Assembly: GCA_048882505.1 (NCBI GenBank)
Contig: JBHLRO010000008.1
Location: 60,001 to 92,000, forward strand
Source of the DNA: Candidatus Thorarchaeota archaeon
GTDB lineage: Archaea; Asgardarchaeota; Heimdallarchaeia; Hodarchaeales; Hodarchaeaceae
Direction: 5' to 3'
Length of the DNA: 32,000 bases
In this document: in pieces, positions 25,892 through 28,015 of the stretch
Layout: the number at the start of each line of letters is the position of its first letter
How positions within the stretch are numbered: position 1 is the first letter of the stretch
Notes under the pieces: generated by a model
Database searches by the model: none
What the model was told of the DNA's origin: nothing
What the model saw: the letters and a program-made list of their open reading frames with translations, nothing else
Translations under genes and position numbers: made by a program

Positions 25892-26464
25892 TCACTCAAC
25901 GGAATGCTTAATCAATCTCCTTTTGACCTTTGGTAATCCGTATCCAGTTTTTTGACTAGCAACTATTATCGACAAATTATCCCCTTCTGGTACATCCAGC
26001 GCTGCCTGAATGGCATTTTCTACCTCACGTATCAATTCAGAATGATTTTTGACCTTAGAATCAGCCTGAATCAGGTCAAATTTATTACAAACGACAATAC
26101 AGGGTATTCGTTTAGTTAATGGAACTACTCGCTTTTGAAATTCATTTTTTGATTCCAGTAACCGAACGGAATCATGGGCATCGACAACATATATGATTAC
26201 ATTGCATTTTTTGAGATAGGAACTCCAAAGATCCCGTAGTCCTTTTTGACCTCCCAAGTCGATAATGGTAGCTTTTACGAATTCATCATCATCTTCAAGG
26301 CTTATCGCATCCATTGTTGACGCAAGAGTTGGTTTAAGGTCTGTGACAAATTTTCCTGTTGTCAATCTAATATACATGGCAGTTTTTCCTGCATTGTCTA
26401 AACCACAAAAAACCAGATTGATCGGTGCTCCTATGGCGCGAATTGTTGACTTTAAATGACTCAT
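25892..26464 (-). CDS. Small GTPase, Arf/Sar-like, 190 aa
   Basis: G1 GLDNAGKT, G2 KPTLA, G3 DLGGQ, LW in switch II, YVVDAHD and G4 NKFD. The G5 region reads VASQKTG. Confidence 0.92.
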   Translation of the reverse strand: MSHLKSTIRAIGAPINLVFCGLDNAGKTAMYIRLTTGKFVTDLKPTLASTMDAISLEDDDEFVKATIIDLGGQKGLRDLWSSYLKKCNVIIYVVDAHDSVRLLESKNEFQKRVVPLTKRIPCIVVCNKFDLIQADSKVKNHSELIREVENAIQAALDVPEGDNLSIIVASQKTGYGLPKVKRRLIKHSVE

Positions 26465-26470
26465 GAACCA

Positions 26471-28015
26471 TCATTCTCCTGTGCTGTTGATTAAAGAGAT
26501 CATAGCCGTTGTACTCTCTGGATTATTTTCCCTAATTTTATTAAAGCGCTTGGAAGCGAGTTCAACATCATTTGGTATAGTATTGATCTCAGTTGGATTT
26601 TCTTTTGTTATTTCTTCCTGAATAATGATCATAGAAGATCCGACCTTATAGAATAAAACGATTGTATTTCCAACAAGAACATCCTGAGGAATGGCTACGG
26701 AGGGGGTGAAGGTGACGGTATCAGCTGCTGACATTCCCCTTTTTCCATGAATTCCTTCCCGGTGCTTTTTTAACATGTCAATGAATAATTCTTTCTGTTC
26801 TTCAGCAACAATTAGGTGTAAACCGGAATCGACCTTATCAGAAGCAAAAATTTTAAGGAATATATCCTCCACAAAATAAGAATGGATAAGAACAAGATAG
26901 ATTTTCTCTGCATATTTTAAATCTGTTTCTAGTCGTTTTCGAGTGGAAGATGGATCAGCAATTGATGAGAGGAAGATGTCTCTATCGACAAGTTTGACGT
27001 TTGAATAAGCCATCTGCAATGTTTGAAATTCAATTTCATGCCGCCGCTTGAAATCCTCAAATGATTGATAAAGGAAATCTGAAAGCTGTGAAAGGGTTTT
27101 TACCAGTGTTAAATATTTCAATTTACGTTTTCCCTTCTTTTTTCCCATTGATGTTGTCTGACAAAAGTTTTGGAGGCAATTTAAAGTCATATTGAACTGC
27201 TGTTCGCTAGAAAGTTGCGATTGGTCTATTTTTTGGCTAAAGAAAGCATTACAATTTCTGATCATCATTTCTAGGATTTCCCCCGTATATCCTAATAGTT
27301 TGAAATCATCTTCTAAATGCCTCGAGTTGCCAAAAGAGGCGGTTATATCAATGTTTTTTATATGTTCAAGGAAAAAGTCTCTTTTTGAGACTTTTCCGCC
27401 ACAGGCAATTAATTTAGTAATAATTATCGCTTCTTTCAGGCTCATCCCCAGAGACAATAGTGTGTAAAGAATCATAGAGGGCAAAGAAGAGAATTTATTC
27501 TTCAACAACTGTAGATGAGAGTAATACTCAAGTAAAAAAACGAATTCATCGGTTTTATTTCTATTCGAATTCTGCGAATAAGAAATCTGAGTAAAATGAT
27601 CGAGTTTGATCAGGAGCTCTCGCGCTTCTTTTGGATGAAACAGATTGTTTGGCTTAATTGTTCGCATTGATAATCGTTCGATGAGCTCTTCAATTCCAAT
27701 GGCCAGTACGACTGTTTTGGGACGAGTATGTGACATTGCAATCAAATTTAGGTTAATTAGACTTGGAAAACCGTCGGGTAATTCCAAACGTGCTGGGCTG
27801 CAACCTATATCCTTTGCAAGAGTTATTGGCTTGATTTGACCACCGTGCAAAACTATAGAAAGCAAAATTTGAGACTGAAAATCCTCGAGTCCAACATCAG
27901 CGAATAGCGTTAAGAGTTGATGACGAATGAACGAATCAGAAGGGATCGGTTCTAGATAATTGGCCGTATCATGATCCTTTTTCACCTTCTCTATCTTCTC
28001 ACCAGAATTAGACAC
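26471..28015 (-). CDS. Protein with two TrmB-like winged-helix units and a C-terminal alpha/beta domain, 514 aa
   Basis: VGLEDFQSQILLSIVLHGGQIKPITLAKDIGCSPARL...LIAMSHTRPKTVV follows the TrmB wHTH pattern, with a second unit LGMSLKEAIIITKLIACGGKVSK. GAGG SD before the GTG. Ends 6 nt before the GTPase start. Confidence 0.6.
   Translation of the reverse strand: MSNSGEKIEKVKKDHDTANYLEPIPSDSFIRHQLLTLFADVGLEDFQSQILLSIVLHGGQIKPITLAKDIGCSPARLELPDGFPSLINLNLIAMSHTRPKTVVLAIGIEELIERLSMRTIKPNNLFHPKEARELLIKLDHFTQISYSQNSNRNKTDEFVFLLEYYSHLQLLKNKFSSLPSMILYTLLSLGMSLKEAIIITKLIACGGKVSKRDFFLEHIKNIDITASFGNSRHLEDDFKLLGYTGEILEMMIRNCNAFFSQKIDQSQLSSEQQFNMTLNCLQNFCQTTSMGKKKGKRKLKYLTLVKTLSQLSDFLYQSFEDFKRRHEIEFQTLQMAYSNVKLVDRDIFLSSIADPSSTRKRLETDLKYAEKIYLVLIHSYFVEDIFLKIFASDKVDSGLHLIVAEEQKELFIDMLKKHREGIHGKRGMSAADTVTFTPSVAIPQDVLVGNTIVLFYKVGSSMIIIQEEITKENPTEINTIPNDVELASKRFNKIRENNPESTTAMISLINSTGE

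What the first reader, a model, noticed from the sequence alone, without database searches (positions are those of the whole stretch)
25892..28015. Arf-like GTPase coupled to a double TrmB-like winged-helix protein
Seen: the 514-aa gene ends 6 nt before the GTPase start, indicating an operon. It has two similar wHTH-like openings (VGLEDFQSQILLSIVLHGGQIK and LGMSLKEAIIITKLIACGGKVS), a basic wing (GKKKGKRKLKY) and a C-terminal alpha/beta domain reminiscent of the TrmB effector region. Established: TrmB regulators normally have one wHTH and sit near sugar or chromatin functions, and Arf-family GTPases act in membrane traffic. Inference: a GTPase-linked transcriptional or chromatin signalling module, or a wHTH scaffold repurposed as a GTPase partner.
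Basis: partly seen in the sequence, partly recalled or inferred. Interest (0 to 1): 0.62.

Follow-up and report, generated by a model that had tools for sequence, protein, structure and literature searches.

The report
Asgard Arf GTPase with TrmB-fold partner
In one small group of Hodarchaeales-type Asgard archaea, an Arf-type GTP switch is always encoded directly behind an undescribed protein that folds like a TrmB-type regulator with an extra winged helix and is predicted to grip the switch, which gives one of the many unexplained Asgard GTPases a matched, testable partner; no function has been shown.

Summary
A 514-aa gene (26471-28015, minus strand) ends 6 nt before a 190-aa Arf-family GTPase gene (25892-26464).

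- **Pairing:** the two genes are adjacent in every related locus that has sequence downstream, down to 24-30% identity of the large protein.
- **Fold:** no Pfam family matches the 514-aa protein. Its AlphaFold model is closest to TrmBL2 and TrmB: a winged helix, long helices and a PLD-like domain, with a second winged helix in front.
- **Predicted binding:** a complex prediction with controls supports binding (median 0.64, best control 0.00). The C-terminal PLD-like domain holds the GTPase's conserved N-terminal peptide and its G4/G5 and C-terminal-helix face, not its switch face.
- **Neighbours:** most loci also carry a longin protein of the FLCN/SMCR8/NPRL2 type. In one lineage this longin is fused to a membrane receptor.
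- **Distribution:** 9 of 21 other genomes of one genus-level group, and none of about 379 other Asgard genomes apart from one chance-level hit.
- **DNA binding:** unproven. No shared operator was found, and the first winged helix has an atypical recognition helix.

This scan had already noted and followed up the same module in other genomes (e1-5645683 and others). My results agree with those reports. I found no paper that describes it.

The parts
26471..28015 (-). 514-aa TrmB-fold protein; new family with no Pfam match. Layout: wHTH1, helical linker, wHTH2 with an insert, long helices, PLD-like C-terminal domain.
   Evidence: ORF. 23 homologues at 44-78% identity, all 498-520 aa except one shortened 470-aa record. 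Only 12 clusters in 1.84 billion representatives. AF2 model pLDDT 78, pTM 0.63. TrmBL2/TrmB are the top structural matches.
27662..27937 (-). Winged helix 1 (residues about 27-118). It is the most conserved domain, has a TrmB-like R-P-K wing, and its recognition helix is interrupted by an invariant ELPDGFP-type insert.
   Evidence: DSSP elements. MarR/ST1889-type wHTH matches at Z 7.4-8.8. Column entropy 0.78, median net charge 0. Compared by eye with the genome's own TrmB wHTHs.
27101..27451 (-). Winged helix 2 (residues about 189-305), with a helical insert of about 50 residues between helix 2 and helix 3 and a lysine-rich wing.
   Evidence: One search gives the secondary structure. TrmB 3qph_A and TrmBL2 5bpd_A align from residue 171/178 onward. 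Net charge is +6 in the window protein (median +3 across the family) and +9 without the insert.
26495..26995 (-). C-terminal PLD-like (TrmB effector-domain-like) domain, residues about 341-507. It is the predicted docking site for the GTPase. The HKD motif is degenerate: the His is kept and the Lys is lost.
   Evidence: 2f5t_X Z 11.9, rmsd 3.1 over 133 aa; NucT, Zucchini and FAM83 at Z about 11. Interface residues 339-349, 377-380, 439-448 and 464-483. Interface columns are more conserved than the rest of the domain, p=0.006.
25892..26464 (-). 190-aa Arf-family (ArfR-type) small GTPase. G1-G5 are intact, there is no Gly2, and the N-terminal peptide is near-invariant.
   Evidence: PF00025 at 2e-27. 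Orthogroup of 32 proteins at >=48% identity. Motifs and conservation from A2. Best solved relative is 8oul_A 'Arf GTPase' at 1.2e-25. No close paralogue in the genome: 316 bits against 97 for the next hit.
28016..28181 (.). 166-nt divergent intergenic region. It holds TATA-like boxes for both directions and one 7-nt inverted repeat at 28058-28084.
   Evidence: Sequence. No repeat or k-mer is shared between orthologous intergenic regions beyond shuffled controls.
28182..29147 (+). 321-aa longin protein: N-terminal longin domain of about 190 aa plus a helical half. It has an invariant Gly-Pro at the start of strand 2. It is a conserved neighbour of the pair.
   Evidence: AF2 model pLDDT 86. 8yqg_B Z 13.9, Lst4 10.3, C9orf72-SMCR8 9.8, SEA complex 9.1, FLCN 8.9, GATOR1 8.4. 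Adjacent to the pair in the window and in L010, L011, L012, L013, L016, L017 and L007.
29194..29856 (+). 220-aa single-pass membrane protein with an Ig-like ectodomain and a conserved acidic cytoplasmic tail motif (LPPEDALELE type).
   Evidence: ORF. Weak Ig-like Pfam hints. The tail is conserved in L004 and L005.
30190..32000 (+). Surface protein of 880 aa in all; it runs to window coordinate 32832, past the window's end. It ends in a PGF-CTERM-like anchor.
   Evidence: The C-terminal PGF + TM + basic tail is conserved in L004 and L005.

Best explanation
The two genes encode a dedicated protein pair. The 514-aa protein is built like a one-component TrmB/TrmBL2-type regulator (winged helix, long helices, PLD-like 'effector' domain) with a second winged helix added in front. 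In place of a sugar, its effector-type domain holds the Arf-type GTPase. It grips the GTPase's conserved N-terminal amphipathic peptide and the adjoining G4/G5 and C-terminal-helix face. This leaves the switch face free for the neighbouring longin protein, a candidate GAP or GEF. The most likely logic is a short signalling chain. Surface or membrane proteins, one with a conserved inner tail or in one lineage a receptor-longin fusion, act on the longin protein. The longin protein sets the nucleotide state of the GTPase. The GTPase changes what the winged-helix half of the 514-aa protein does. I take DNA binding and transcription control as the most likely output, probably through the basic winged helix 2. 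Shown here: the operon, its conservation, the fold similarity, and intact GTPase motifs. Predicted: the binding and the interface. Inferred: nucleotide dependence, the direction of signalling and DNA binding.
For: Operon with a 6-nt gap and an internal SD sequence. The GTPase lies immediately downstream in every locus with sequence, including relatives at 35%, 30% and 24% identity. Both genes are single-copy, discrete orthogroups of matching size found on shared contigs. TrmBL2/TrmB are the best structural matches, spanning wHTH2 plus the C-terminal domain. ESM-Atlas neighbours are HTH-plus-C-terminal-domain regulators: TrmB, FilR1, DUF5753. Complex prediction: runs 0.32, 0.70 and 0.64, median 0.64, best of 3 controls 0.00. 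The mark was reached by 58 of 80 solved complexes and 2 of 110 mismatched pairs. The runs agree in at least 51% of their contacts and the partner's pLDDT is at least 81. These counts hold only roughly, because my own alignments and a GTP/Mg ligand were used. Interface residues are more conserved than the rest of the domain (p=0.006) and include the invariant IPQD stretch. The GTPase N-terminal peptide is near-invariant, which fits a protein contact better than a lipid contact. wHTH2 carries a conserved basic wing and net positive charge. wHTH1 keeps a TrmB-like R-P-K wing. The longin neighbour is of the GAP-longin type and is fused to a membrane receptor in L007.
Against: No sequence profile links the protein to TrmB or any HTH family. 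wHTH1 is neutral, and its recognition helix is split by an invariant Pro/Gly/acidic insert. No operator-like repeat or k-mer is shared by orthologous promoters. The predicted contact avoids switch I and II, so nucleotide dependence is not evident from the model. The PLD-like domain matches nucleases and FAM83 as well as the TrmB effector domain (Z 11.1-11.9), so that domain alone does not prove TrmB ancestry. The longin gene is not adjacent in the P0019, P0022 and P0024 lineages. The complex score is a model's confidence, not a measurement.
Confidence: 0.42

Rival explanations
1. The protein is a GTPase scaffold or regulator that does not bind DNA. The winged helices act as protein-protein or membrane/acidic-tail binding modules, as in ESCRT-II, cullins or the NPRL2/3 C-terminal domains. 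The PLD-like domain holds the Arf N-terminal helix and the base-binding side of the GTPase. The protein would then act as an anchor, GDI-like chaperone, exchange factor or effector platform that presents the GTPase to the longin protein and to receptor tails.
For: The predicted interface covers the N-terminal helix and the G4/G5 region. wHTH1 is neutral with a broken recognition helix, yet it is the most conserved domain. This fits a conserved protein partner. No HTH profile matches and no shared operator was found. The acidic receptor tail (LPPEDALELE type) could fit the lysine-rich wing. PLD-like pseudo-enzymes such as FAM83 are protein-docking domains and match at Z 11.3.
Against: The whole-chain architecture is that of DNA-binding one-component regulators. 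The basic wing and polar helix 3 of wHTH2 are ordinary for DNA binders. No test of any second partner was possible.
Confidence: 0.33
2. The protein is an ordinary local transcription factor that is merely co-transcribed with the GTPase. It would regulate the operon and the divergent genes, with no physical contact between the two proteins.
For: The gene is divergently arranged with a 166-nt shared promoter region in many loci. A 7-nt inverted repeat lies around a TATA-like box. The fold is TrmB-like.
Against: The pairing is strict over deep divergence, whereas the divergent neighbour changes. The complex prediction passes its controls. The predicted interface is conserved. The inverted repeat is not conserved in other loci.
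Confidence: 0.12
3. The C-terminal domain is an active PLD-superfamily phosphodiesterase or nuclease, targeted by winged helices and controlled by the GTPase.
For: PLD-fold nucleases (NucT, Zucchini, Nuc) match at Z 10.4-11.4. An invariant His378 sits in an HKD-like position, followed by conserved Asp, Ser and Asn.
Against: The motif lysine is absent in all members and the spacing is one residue short. There is only one PLD-like lobe, and His378 lies in the predicted protein interface. The TrmB and FAM83 versions of this fold are non-catalytic (established knowledge).
Confidence: 0.04

Closest known systems
TrmBL2 (Thermococcus/Pyrococcus chromatin protein, PDB 5box/5bpd) and TrmB (PDB 3qph; effector domain 2f5t)
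   Same: An N-terminal winged helix with an R/K-P-K wing, then long helices, then a PLD-like alpha/beta domain. These are the best Foldseek and VIA matches. As in TrmBL2, the chain ends after the PLD-like lobe, with no sugar-binding beta-sandwich.
   Different: No detectable sequence-profile relation. It is twice the length and has an extra N-terminal winged helix. The winged helix that aligns with TrmB's carries a 50-residue insert. The recognition helix of wHTH1 is atypical. It is obligately paired with a GTPase gene. The predicted ligand of the effector-type domain is a protein.
Asgard Arf-related GTPases (ArfR/AArf; bioRxiv 10.1101/2024.02.28.582541, PMC11914678; PDB 8oul/8ouk/8oum)
   Same: The GTPase is of this family: Arf Pfam match, the G1 motif GLDNAGKT, G3 DLGGQ followed by a conserved Trp, an N-terminal amphipathic peptide without Gly2, and best PDB match 8oul_A.
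   Different: It is a separate orthogroup with a Ras/Rab-like S-Q-K G5 motif. It has a 4-residue acidic insert in the beta2-beta3 hairpin relative to 8oul_A, and a sequence-invariant N-terminal peptide. Those papers do not mention gene neighbours or partner proteins.
Eukaryotic longin GAP complexes with their GTPases (C9orf72-SMCR8 with Arf1; FLCN-FNIP and GATOR1 NPRL2-NPRL3 with Rags), and the Asgard 'GP-motif' longins of PMC12290439
   Same: The divergent 321-aa neighbour has a longin domain closest to these (Z 8.4-10.3; Loki longin 13.9). It has an invariant Gly-Pro at the start of strand 2, where that paper places the GP motif.
   Different: It has no DENN domain and no second longin subunit was seen. 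The arginine finger is not assigned and activity is untested. The TrmB-fold partner has no counterpart in the eukaryotic complexes.
FAM83 DUF1669 pseudo-PLD domains (PDB 5lzk, 4urj)
   Same: A single PLD-like lobe with a degenerate HKD motif, used (in FAM83) to dock a protein partner. Z 11.3.
   Different: No sequence relation, a different partner (CK1 kinases in FAM83), and a different overall architecture.

Membership tests
TrmB family transcription regulators (Pfam PF01978 TrmB wHTH, PF11495 Regulator_TrmB) | Sequence match to the TrmB wHTH profile | tested here: not met
   No PF01978 hit for the window protein, nor for any of 23 family members at E<=10. The gene is not among 17 PF01978 matches in the own genome. 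hhalign against two true TrmB paralogues gives probability below 1%.
TrmB family transcription regulators (Pfam PF01978 TrmB wHTH, PF11495 Regulator_TrmB) | Architecture: wHTH, then a long helix, then a PLD-like effector-domain lobe | tested here: met
   Foldseek: 5box_A E 2.7e-5, 3qph_A 1.8e-3. VIA: 3qph_A Z 12.4 (rmsd 16.9, 213 aa aligned over model residues 171-507; the domains are arranged differently), 5bpd_A Z 11.4, 2f5t_X Z 11.9 (rmsd 3.1, 133 aa). This rests on a predicted model.
TrmB family transcription regulators (Pfam PF01978 TrmB wHTH, PF11495 Regulator_TrmB) | C-terminal sugar-binding beta-sandwich sub-domain (TrmB in the strict sense) | tested here: not met
   The chain ends after the PLD-like lobe, as in TrmBL2. 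There is no PF11495 match.
TrmB family transcription regulators (Pfam PF01978 TrmB wHTH, PF11495 Regulator_TrmB) | DNA binding | not testable with these tools
   Only indirect evidence is available. The basic wing of wHTH2 speaks for it. The neutral wHTH1 with a broken recognition helix and the lack of a shared operator speak against it.
Arf family small GTPases (Pfam PF00025), Asgard ArfR type | Profile match above the curated cut-off and intact G1-G5 motifs | tested here: met
   96.2 bits against a cut-off of 22.3. G1, Thr46, DLGGQ with Gln73, NKxD and S-Q-K are conserved across 33 sequences. The best solved relatives are Arf and Arl proteins, with 8oul_A at the top.
Arf family small GTPases (Pfam PF00025), Asgard ArfR type | N-terminal amphipathic helix; Gly2 for myristoylation | tested here: inconclusive
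   A short N-terminal peptide with an i, i+4, i+7 hydrophobic pattern is present and near-invariant. Gly2 is absent, as reported for Asgard ArfRs. Helix formation and membrane binding were not tested.
PLD superfamily (HKD phosphodiesterases) | HxK(x)4D(x)6GSxN catalytic motif | tested here: not met
   His378 is invariant, but the Lys position holds Tyr or another residue in all members, and the Asp spacing is one residue short. The fold itself matches.
GAP-type longin proteins (FLCN/SMCR8/NPRL2 class), for the divergent 321-aa neighbour | Longin fold closest to this class, plus the GP motif before or at strand 2 | tested here: met
   Z 13.9 (8yqg_B), 10.3 (Lst4), 9.8 (7o2w_A), 9.1, 8.9 and 8.4. 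Gly21-Pro22 are invariant in 17 sequences. The motif's position is as described in PMC12290439.
GAP-type longin proteins (FLCN/SMCR8/NPRL2 class), for the divergent 321-aa neighbour | Catalytic arginine finger and GAP activity | tested here: inconclusive
   Arg43, Arg81 and Arg98 are invariant. None could be placed against the GTPase, because no second complex job was available.

The most novel reading that the evidence does not exclude
An Arf-type GTPase is the 'ligand' of a one-component-style DNA-binding regulator. A pseudo-PLD effector domain, rather than a membrane, reads the Arf N-terminal-helix switch. A surface receptor, a GAP-type longin, an Arf GTPase and a transcription factor would then form a complete signalling path in an archaeon close to eukaryotes, from the cell surface to the genome.
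Probability: 0.27. Interest if true: 0.82.

Novelty: new variant of a known kind. Interest (0 to 1): 0.58.

Why it matters
Asgard genomes hold dozens of eukaryote-like small GTPases; this one has about 49. Almost none has a known partner. Tran et al. 2024 (PMC10933270) note that in MK-D1 the GTPase genes are generally not in operons with regulators, which makes matching difficult. This locus gives a strictly conserved partner that is predicted to bind, and a GAP-type longin neighbour. PMC12290439 asks which GTPases the Asgard GP-motif longins act on, and this locus offers a candidate answer. If the TrmB-fold partner binds DNA, Arf-type switching would be wired to gene control rather than to membrane traffic. 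That would change how 'membrane-trafficking' signature proteins in Asgard archaea are read. The narrow distribution, one genus-level group, limits what can be concluded about the origin of eukaryotes.

Tried and rejected
- **Sequence profiles:** Pfam scans of the 514-aa protein and of all 23 members at E<=10 gave only scattered chance hits.
- **Solved structures by sequence:** a profile search of PDB sequences with A1 gave no match at E<=10.
- **hhalign against true TrmBs:** A1 against the genome's two canonical TrmB proteins gave probability below 1%. The best alignment did fall on the wHTH in register.
- **Possible paralogues:** the 525-aa and 514-aa neighbours in L007 and L003 are not related to A1. 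The L007 525-aa protein turned out to be a receptor-longin fusion instead.
- **Operator search:** inverted repeats in seven orthologous intergenic regions and shared 6-8-mers against 200 shuffles gave nothing beyond chance. A slower mismatch-tolerant search timed out. A sigma-70-type scan is uninformative for an archaeon.
- **Rosetta-stone test:** the 220-aa membrane protein shows no similarity to the ectodomain of the L007 receptor-longin fusion.
- **Upstream genes in distant loci:** the 252-aa and 233-aa upstream genes in L003 and L006 are unrelated to the longin protein.
- **Literature:** searches for Asgard + GTPase + TrmB, winged helix, operon or genomic context found no description of this pairing. 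The two ArfR/AArf papers contain no mention of neighbours or operons.
- **RPC62-like and multi-WH matches:** Foldseek E about 1e-2 and VIA Z 7.9. I took these as generic repeats of winged helices.
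Full report
**1. What is there.** The minus strand carries a 514-aa ORF (26471-28015, GTG start) and a 190-aa ORF (25892-26464), separated by 6 nt. A GGAG-type ribosome-binding sequence for the second gene lies inside the end of the first. A GAGAGG stretch precedes the GTG, and the N-terminus from that start aligns with the homologues. The window is C8:60001-92000 of a 4.3-Mb genome that is 94.6% complete. Sources name the homologues' organisms Hodarchaeales or Heimdallarchaeota, including 'Candidatus Hodarchaeum mangrovi'.

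**2. The GTPase.**
- It matches Pfam Arf at 2e-27.
- Its orthogroup has 32 proteins at >=48% identity.
- It keeps the P-loop, Thr46, DLGGQ with Gln73, the Arf-family Trp80 and NKxD.
- Its G5 motif is S-Q-K, which is Ras/Rab-like rather than Arf-like.
- The best solved relative is 8oul_A, deposited as 'Arf GTPase', at 1.2e-25. Relative to it, the beta2-beta3 hairpin carries a 4-residue acidic insert.
- There is no Gly2. The first 14 residues are nearly invariant across the orthogroup.
- The genome has about 49 small-GTPase ORFs. This one has no close paralogue: 316 bits against 97 for the next.

**3. The 514-aa protein.**
- It matches no Pfam family and no PDB sequence.
- The family is small. 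A word-indexed search found 23 proteins. An exhaustive search of 1.84 billion representatives found only 12 clusters.
- It is single-copy in the own genome.
- Among 400 Asgard genomes it occurs in 9 of 21 others of the same genus-level group and in no other. One hit at 1.9e-4 elsewhere is chance-level.

An AlphaFold2 model built on the 23-sequence alignment has pLDDT 78 and pTM 0.63. It shows five parts:
- winged helix 1 (residues about 27-118);
- linker helices;
- winged helix 2 (about 189-305), with a helical insert of about 50 residues between helices 2 and 3 and a lysine-rich wing;
- two long helices (308-338);
- an alpha/beta domain (348-507).

Foldseek ranks TrmBL2 first (5box_A, E 2.7e-5) and then TrmB (3qph_A, 1.8e-3). 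The Foldseek-independent search gives:
- 3qph_A at Z 12.4, with 213 residues aligned over model residues 171-507. The rmsd of 16.9 shows that the domains are arranged differently.
- 2f5t_X, the TrmB effector domain, at Z 11.9, rmsd 3.1, 133 aa.
- PLD-fold proteins (NucT, Zucchini, FAM83, Nuc) at Z 10.4-11.4.
- MarR/ST1889-type winged helices at Z 7.4-8.8 for residues 27-118.

ESM-Atlas neighbours are HTH-plus-C-terminal-domain regulators: TrmB, FilR1 and DUF5753.

At sequence level it fails:
- The genome's real TrmB paralogues hit PF01978 at 1e-19, but this gene does not.
- hhalign against those paralogues is insignificant.

By eye, winged helix 1 still shows the TrmB pattern (G-L, then helix, G-G, helix, then an R-P-K wing). 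Its recognition helix, however, is cut by an invariant ELPDGFP-type insert.

The PLD-like domain keeps an invariant His378 but lacks the motif lysine, so catalysis is unlikely.

**4. Conservation of the pairing.** In contigs carrying homologues at 24-60% identity to the window protein, the next gene is always the Arf-like GTPase, 3-20 nt downstream. These contigs carry P0005, P0016, P0019, P0022, P0024, P0028 and the fragment P0033. An HMM scan of all fetched loci found the GTPase directly downstream in every locus with downstream sequence. Only L015, which is cut at a contig end, lacks it. Matching contig lengths point to further shared contigs. This refutes 'unique to this genome'.

**5. Predicted contact.** I ran a complex prediction with both alignments plus GTP and Mg.
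- The three runs scored 0.32, 0.70 and 0.64, median 0.64. The best of three controls scored 0.00.
- The pass mark was reached by 58 of 80 solved complexes and by 2 of 110 mismatched pairs.
- The runs agree in at least 51% of their contacts, and the partner's pLDDT is at least 81.
- The tool warns that these counts hold only roughly, because my own alignments and a ligand were used.
- I know of no solved complex of this kind, so a pass from memory is unlikely. It remains a model's confidence, not a measurement.

On the 514-aa protein, the interface is the C-terminal domain (339-349, 377-380, 439-448 with the invariant IPQD, and 464-483). On the GTPase, it is residues 3-14, then 130, 140-145 and 170-189. 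That is the N-terminal peptide and the G4/G5 and C-terminal-helix side, not switch I or II.

Interface columns are more conserved than the rest of the C-terminal domain (entropy 0.74 against 1.23, permutation p=0.006). On the GTPase they are more conserved than average (p=0.03). Part of the GTPase signal is general Arf-family conservation around G5.

**6. Neighbourhood.** The divergent 321-aa gene (28182-29147) is a longin protein.
- Its model has pLDDT 86 with the topology beta-beta-alpha-beta-beta-beta-alpha.
- Its matches are a Lokiarchaeal longin at Z 13.9, Lst4 at 10.3, C9orf72-SMCR8 at 9.8, the SEA complex at 9.1, FLCN at 8.9 and GATOR1 at 8.4.
- It has an invariant Gly21-Pro22 at the start of strand 2. 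PMC12290439 places the 'GP motif' of GAP-type longins there. That paper asks which Asgard GTPases such longins serve.
- Besides the window (fetched again as L009), the family is adjacent to the pair in L010, L011, L012, L013, L016 and L017, where it is divergent.
- In L007/L018 it sits directly upstream on the same strand.
- There it is the cytoplasmic end (residues 322-505) of a 525-aa protein with a signal peptide, an ectodomain and one membrane helix.
- It is not adjacent in the P0019, P0022 and P0024 lineages.

Two surface proteins follow the longin gene in the window, L004 and L005:
- a 220-aa single-pass protein with a conserved acidic cytoplasmic tail;
- an 880-aa protein with a PGF-CTERM-like end.

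**7. Does the 514-aa protein bind DNA?**
- For: the overall regulator-type architecture; the basic wing and net charge of winged helix 2 (+9 without its insert); and the divergent gene arrangement.
- Against: winged helix 1 is the most conserved part but is neutral, with a broken recognition helix.
- Against: no HTH profile matches.
- Against: orthologous promoters share no inverted repeat or k-mer above shuffled controls. The single 7-nt inverted repeat at 28058-28084 is within chance for AT-rich DNA.

I therefore commit only weakly. I put a GTPase-gated DNA-binding output at about 0.4 and a non-DNA scaffold or regulator role at about 0.3.

**8. Mechanism proposed.**
- Shown or predicted: the effector-type domain of a TrmB-fold protein docks the GTPase through its N-terminal peptide and back face. 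The switch face stays free.
- Inferred: in Arf proteins, GTP binding releases the N-terminal helix (established for eukaryotic Arfs). Capture of that helix by the pseudo-PLD domain could make the contact depend on nucleotide state without touching the switches.
- Inferred: the longin protein, soluble here and receptor-fused in L007, would set the nucleotide state. The surface proteins would provide the input.

**9. Comparison with earlier work.**
- The two ArfR/AArf papers do not discuss gene neighbours.
- Tran et al. 2024 state that MK-D1 GTPases are generally not in operons with regulators.
- No paper found describes a TrmB-fold partner.
- Within this scan, the same module was noted in several other genomes and followed up once (e1-5645683), with the same conclusions. 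I reached these independently before reading that note.
- A second wHTH + Arf-like + longin locus is noted elsewhere in this genome (e1-5416289). Consistent with that, two PF01978-type genes on contig C2 lie next to small-GTPase ORFs.

**10. Verdict.** This is a real, conserved but lineage-restricted gene pair that encodes a predicted complex. Its partner protein belongs to an undescribed family of TrmB-like fold. It is a new variant of known kinds: a one-component regulator architecture combined with an Arf GTPase and a longin. It is testable and of moderate-to-good interest. Its function is not shown.

Noticed in passing
window 28182-29147 (+): The 321-aa divergent gene is a longin protein of the FLCN/SMCR8/NPRL2 (GAP-longin) structural class. 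It has an invariant Gly-Pro at the start of strand 2 and invariant Arg43, Arg81 and Arg98. It travels with the pair in most lineages.
   Followed up: yes
L007:1857-3434 (+): In the most distant lineage (30% identity of the large protein), the longin domain is the cytoplasmic tail of a 525-aa protein with a signal peptide, an ectodomain and one TM helix. It is encoded directly upstream of the TrmB-fold gene and the GTPase on the same strand. This is a receptor-longin fusion.
   Followed up: partly
window 29194-29856 (+): A 220-aa single-pass membrane protein with an Ig-like ectodomain. Its short cytoplasmic tail carries a conserved acidic motif (LPPEDALELE type) that is also present in L004 and L005. 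It is a candidate docking peptide for the longin or winged-helix protein.
   Followed up: partly
window 30190-32000 (+), continuing to 32832: An 880-aa surface protein that ends in a PGF-CTERM-like signal (PGF, a hydrophobic helix, then a basic tail). The same end is seen in L004 and L005.
   Followed up: partly
own genome C2:155915-156981 and C2:271180-272260 (loci L023, L024): Two further genes with a PF01978-type TrmB winged helix lie directly beside small-GTPase ORFs, one pair divergent and one convergent. This hints that winged-helix/GTPase pairing recurs in this genome. About 0.5 such cases would be expected by chance among the 17 hits.
   Followed up: partly
window 28058-28084: A 7-nt perfect inverted repeat (CTTTCAT, 13 nt, ATGAAAG) brackets a TATA-like A/T box upstream of the 514-aa gene. 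It is partly kept in the closest relative (L010) but not in other loci.
   Followed up: yes
window 25892-26464 (-): The GTPase combines Arf-type G1/G3 signatures with a Ras/Rab-like G5 (S-Q-K). It also has a 4-residue acidic insert in the beta2-beta3 hairpin relative to the Asgard Arf structure 8oul_A.
   Followed up: partly
G072 (loci L015 and L020): One related genome, with 9% contamination, holds two copies of the 514-aa family at different divergence. This could be paralogy or a mixed bin.
   Followed up: no
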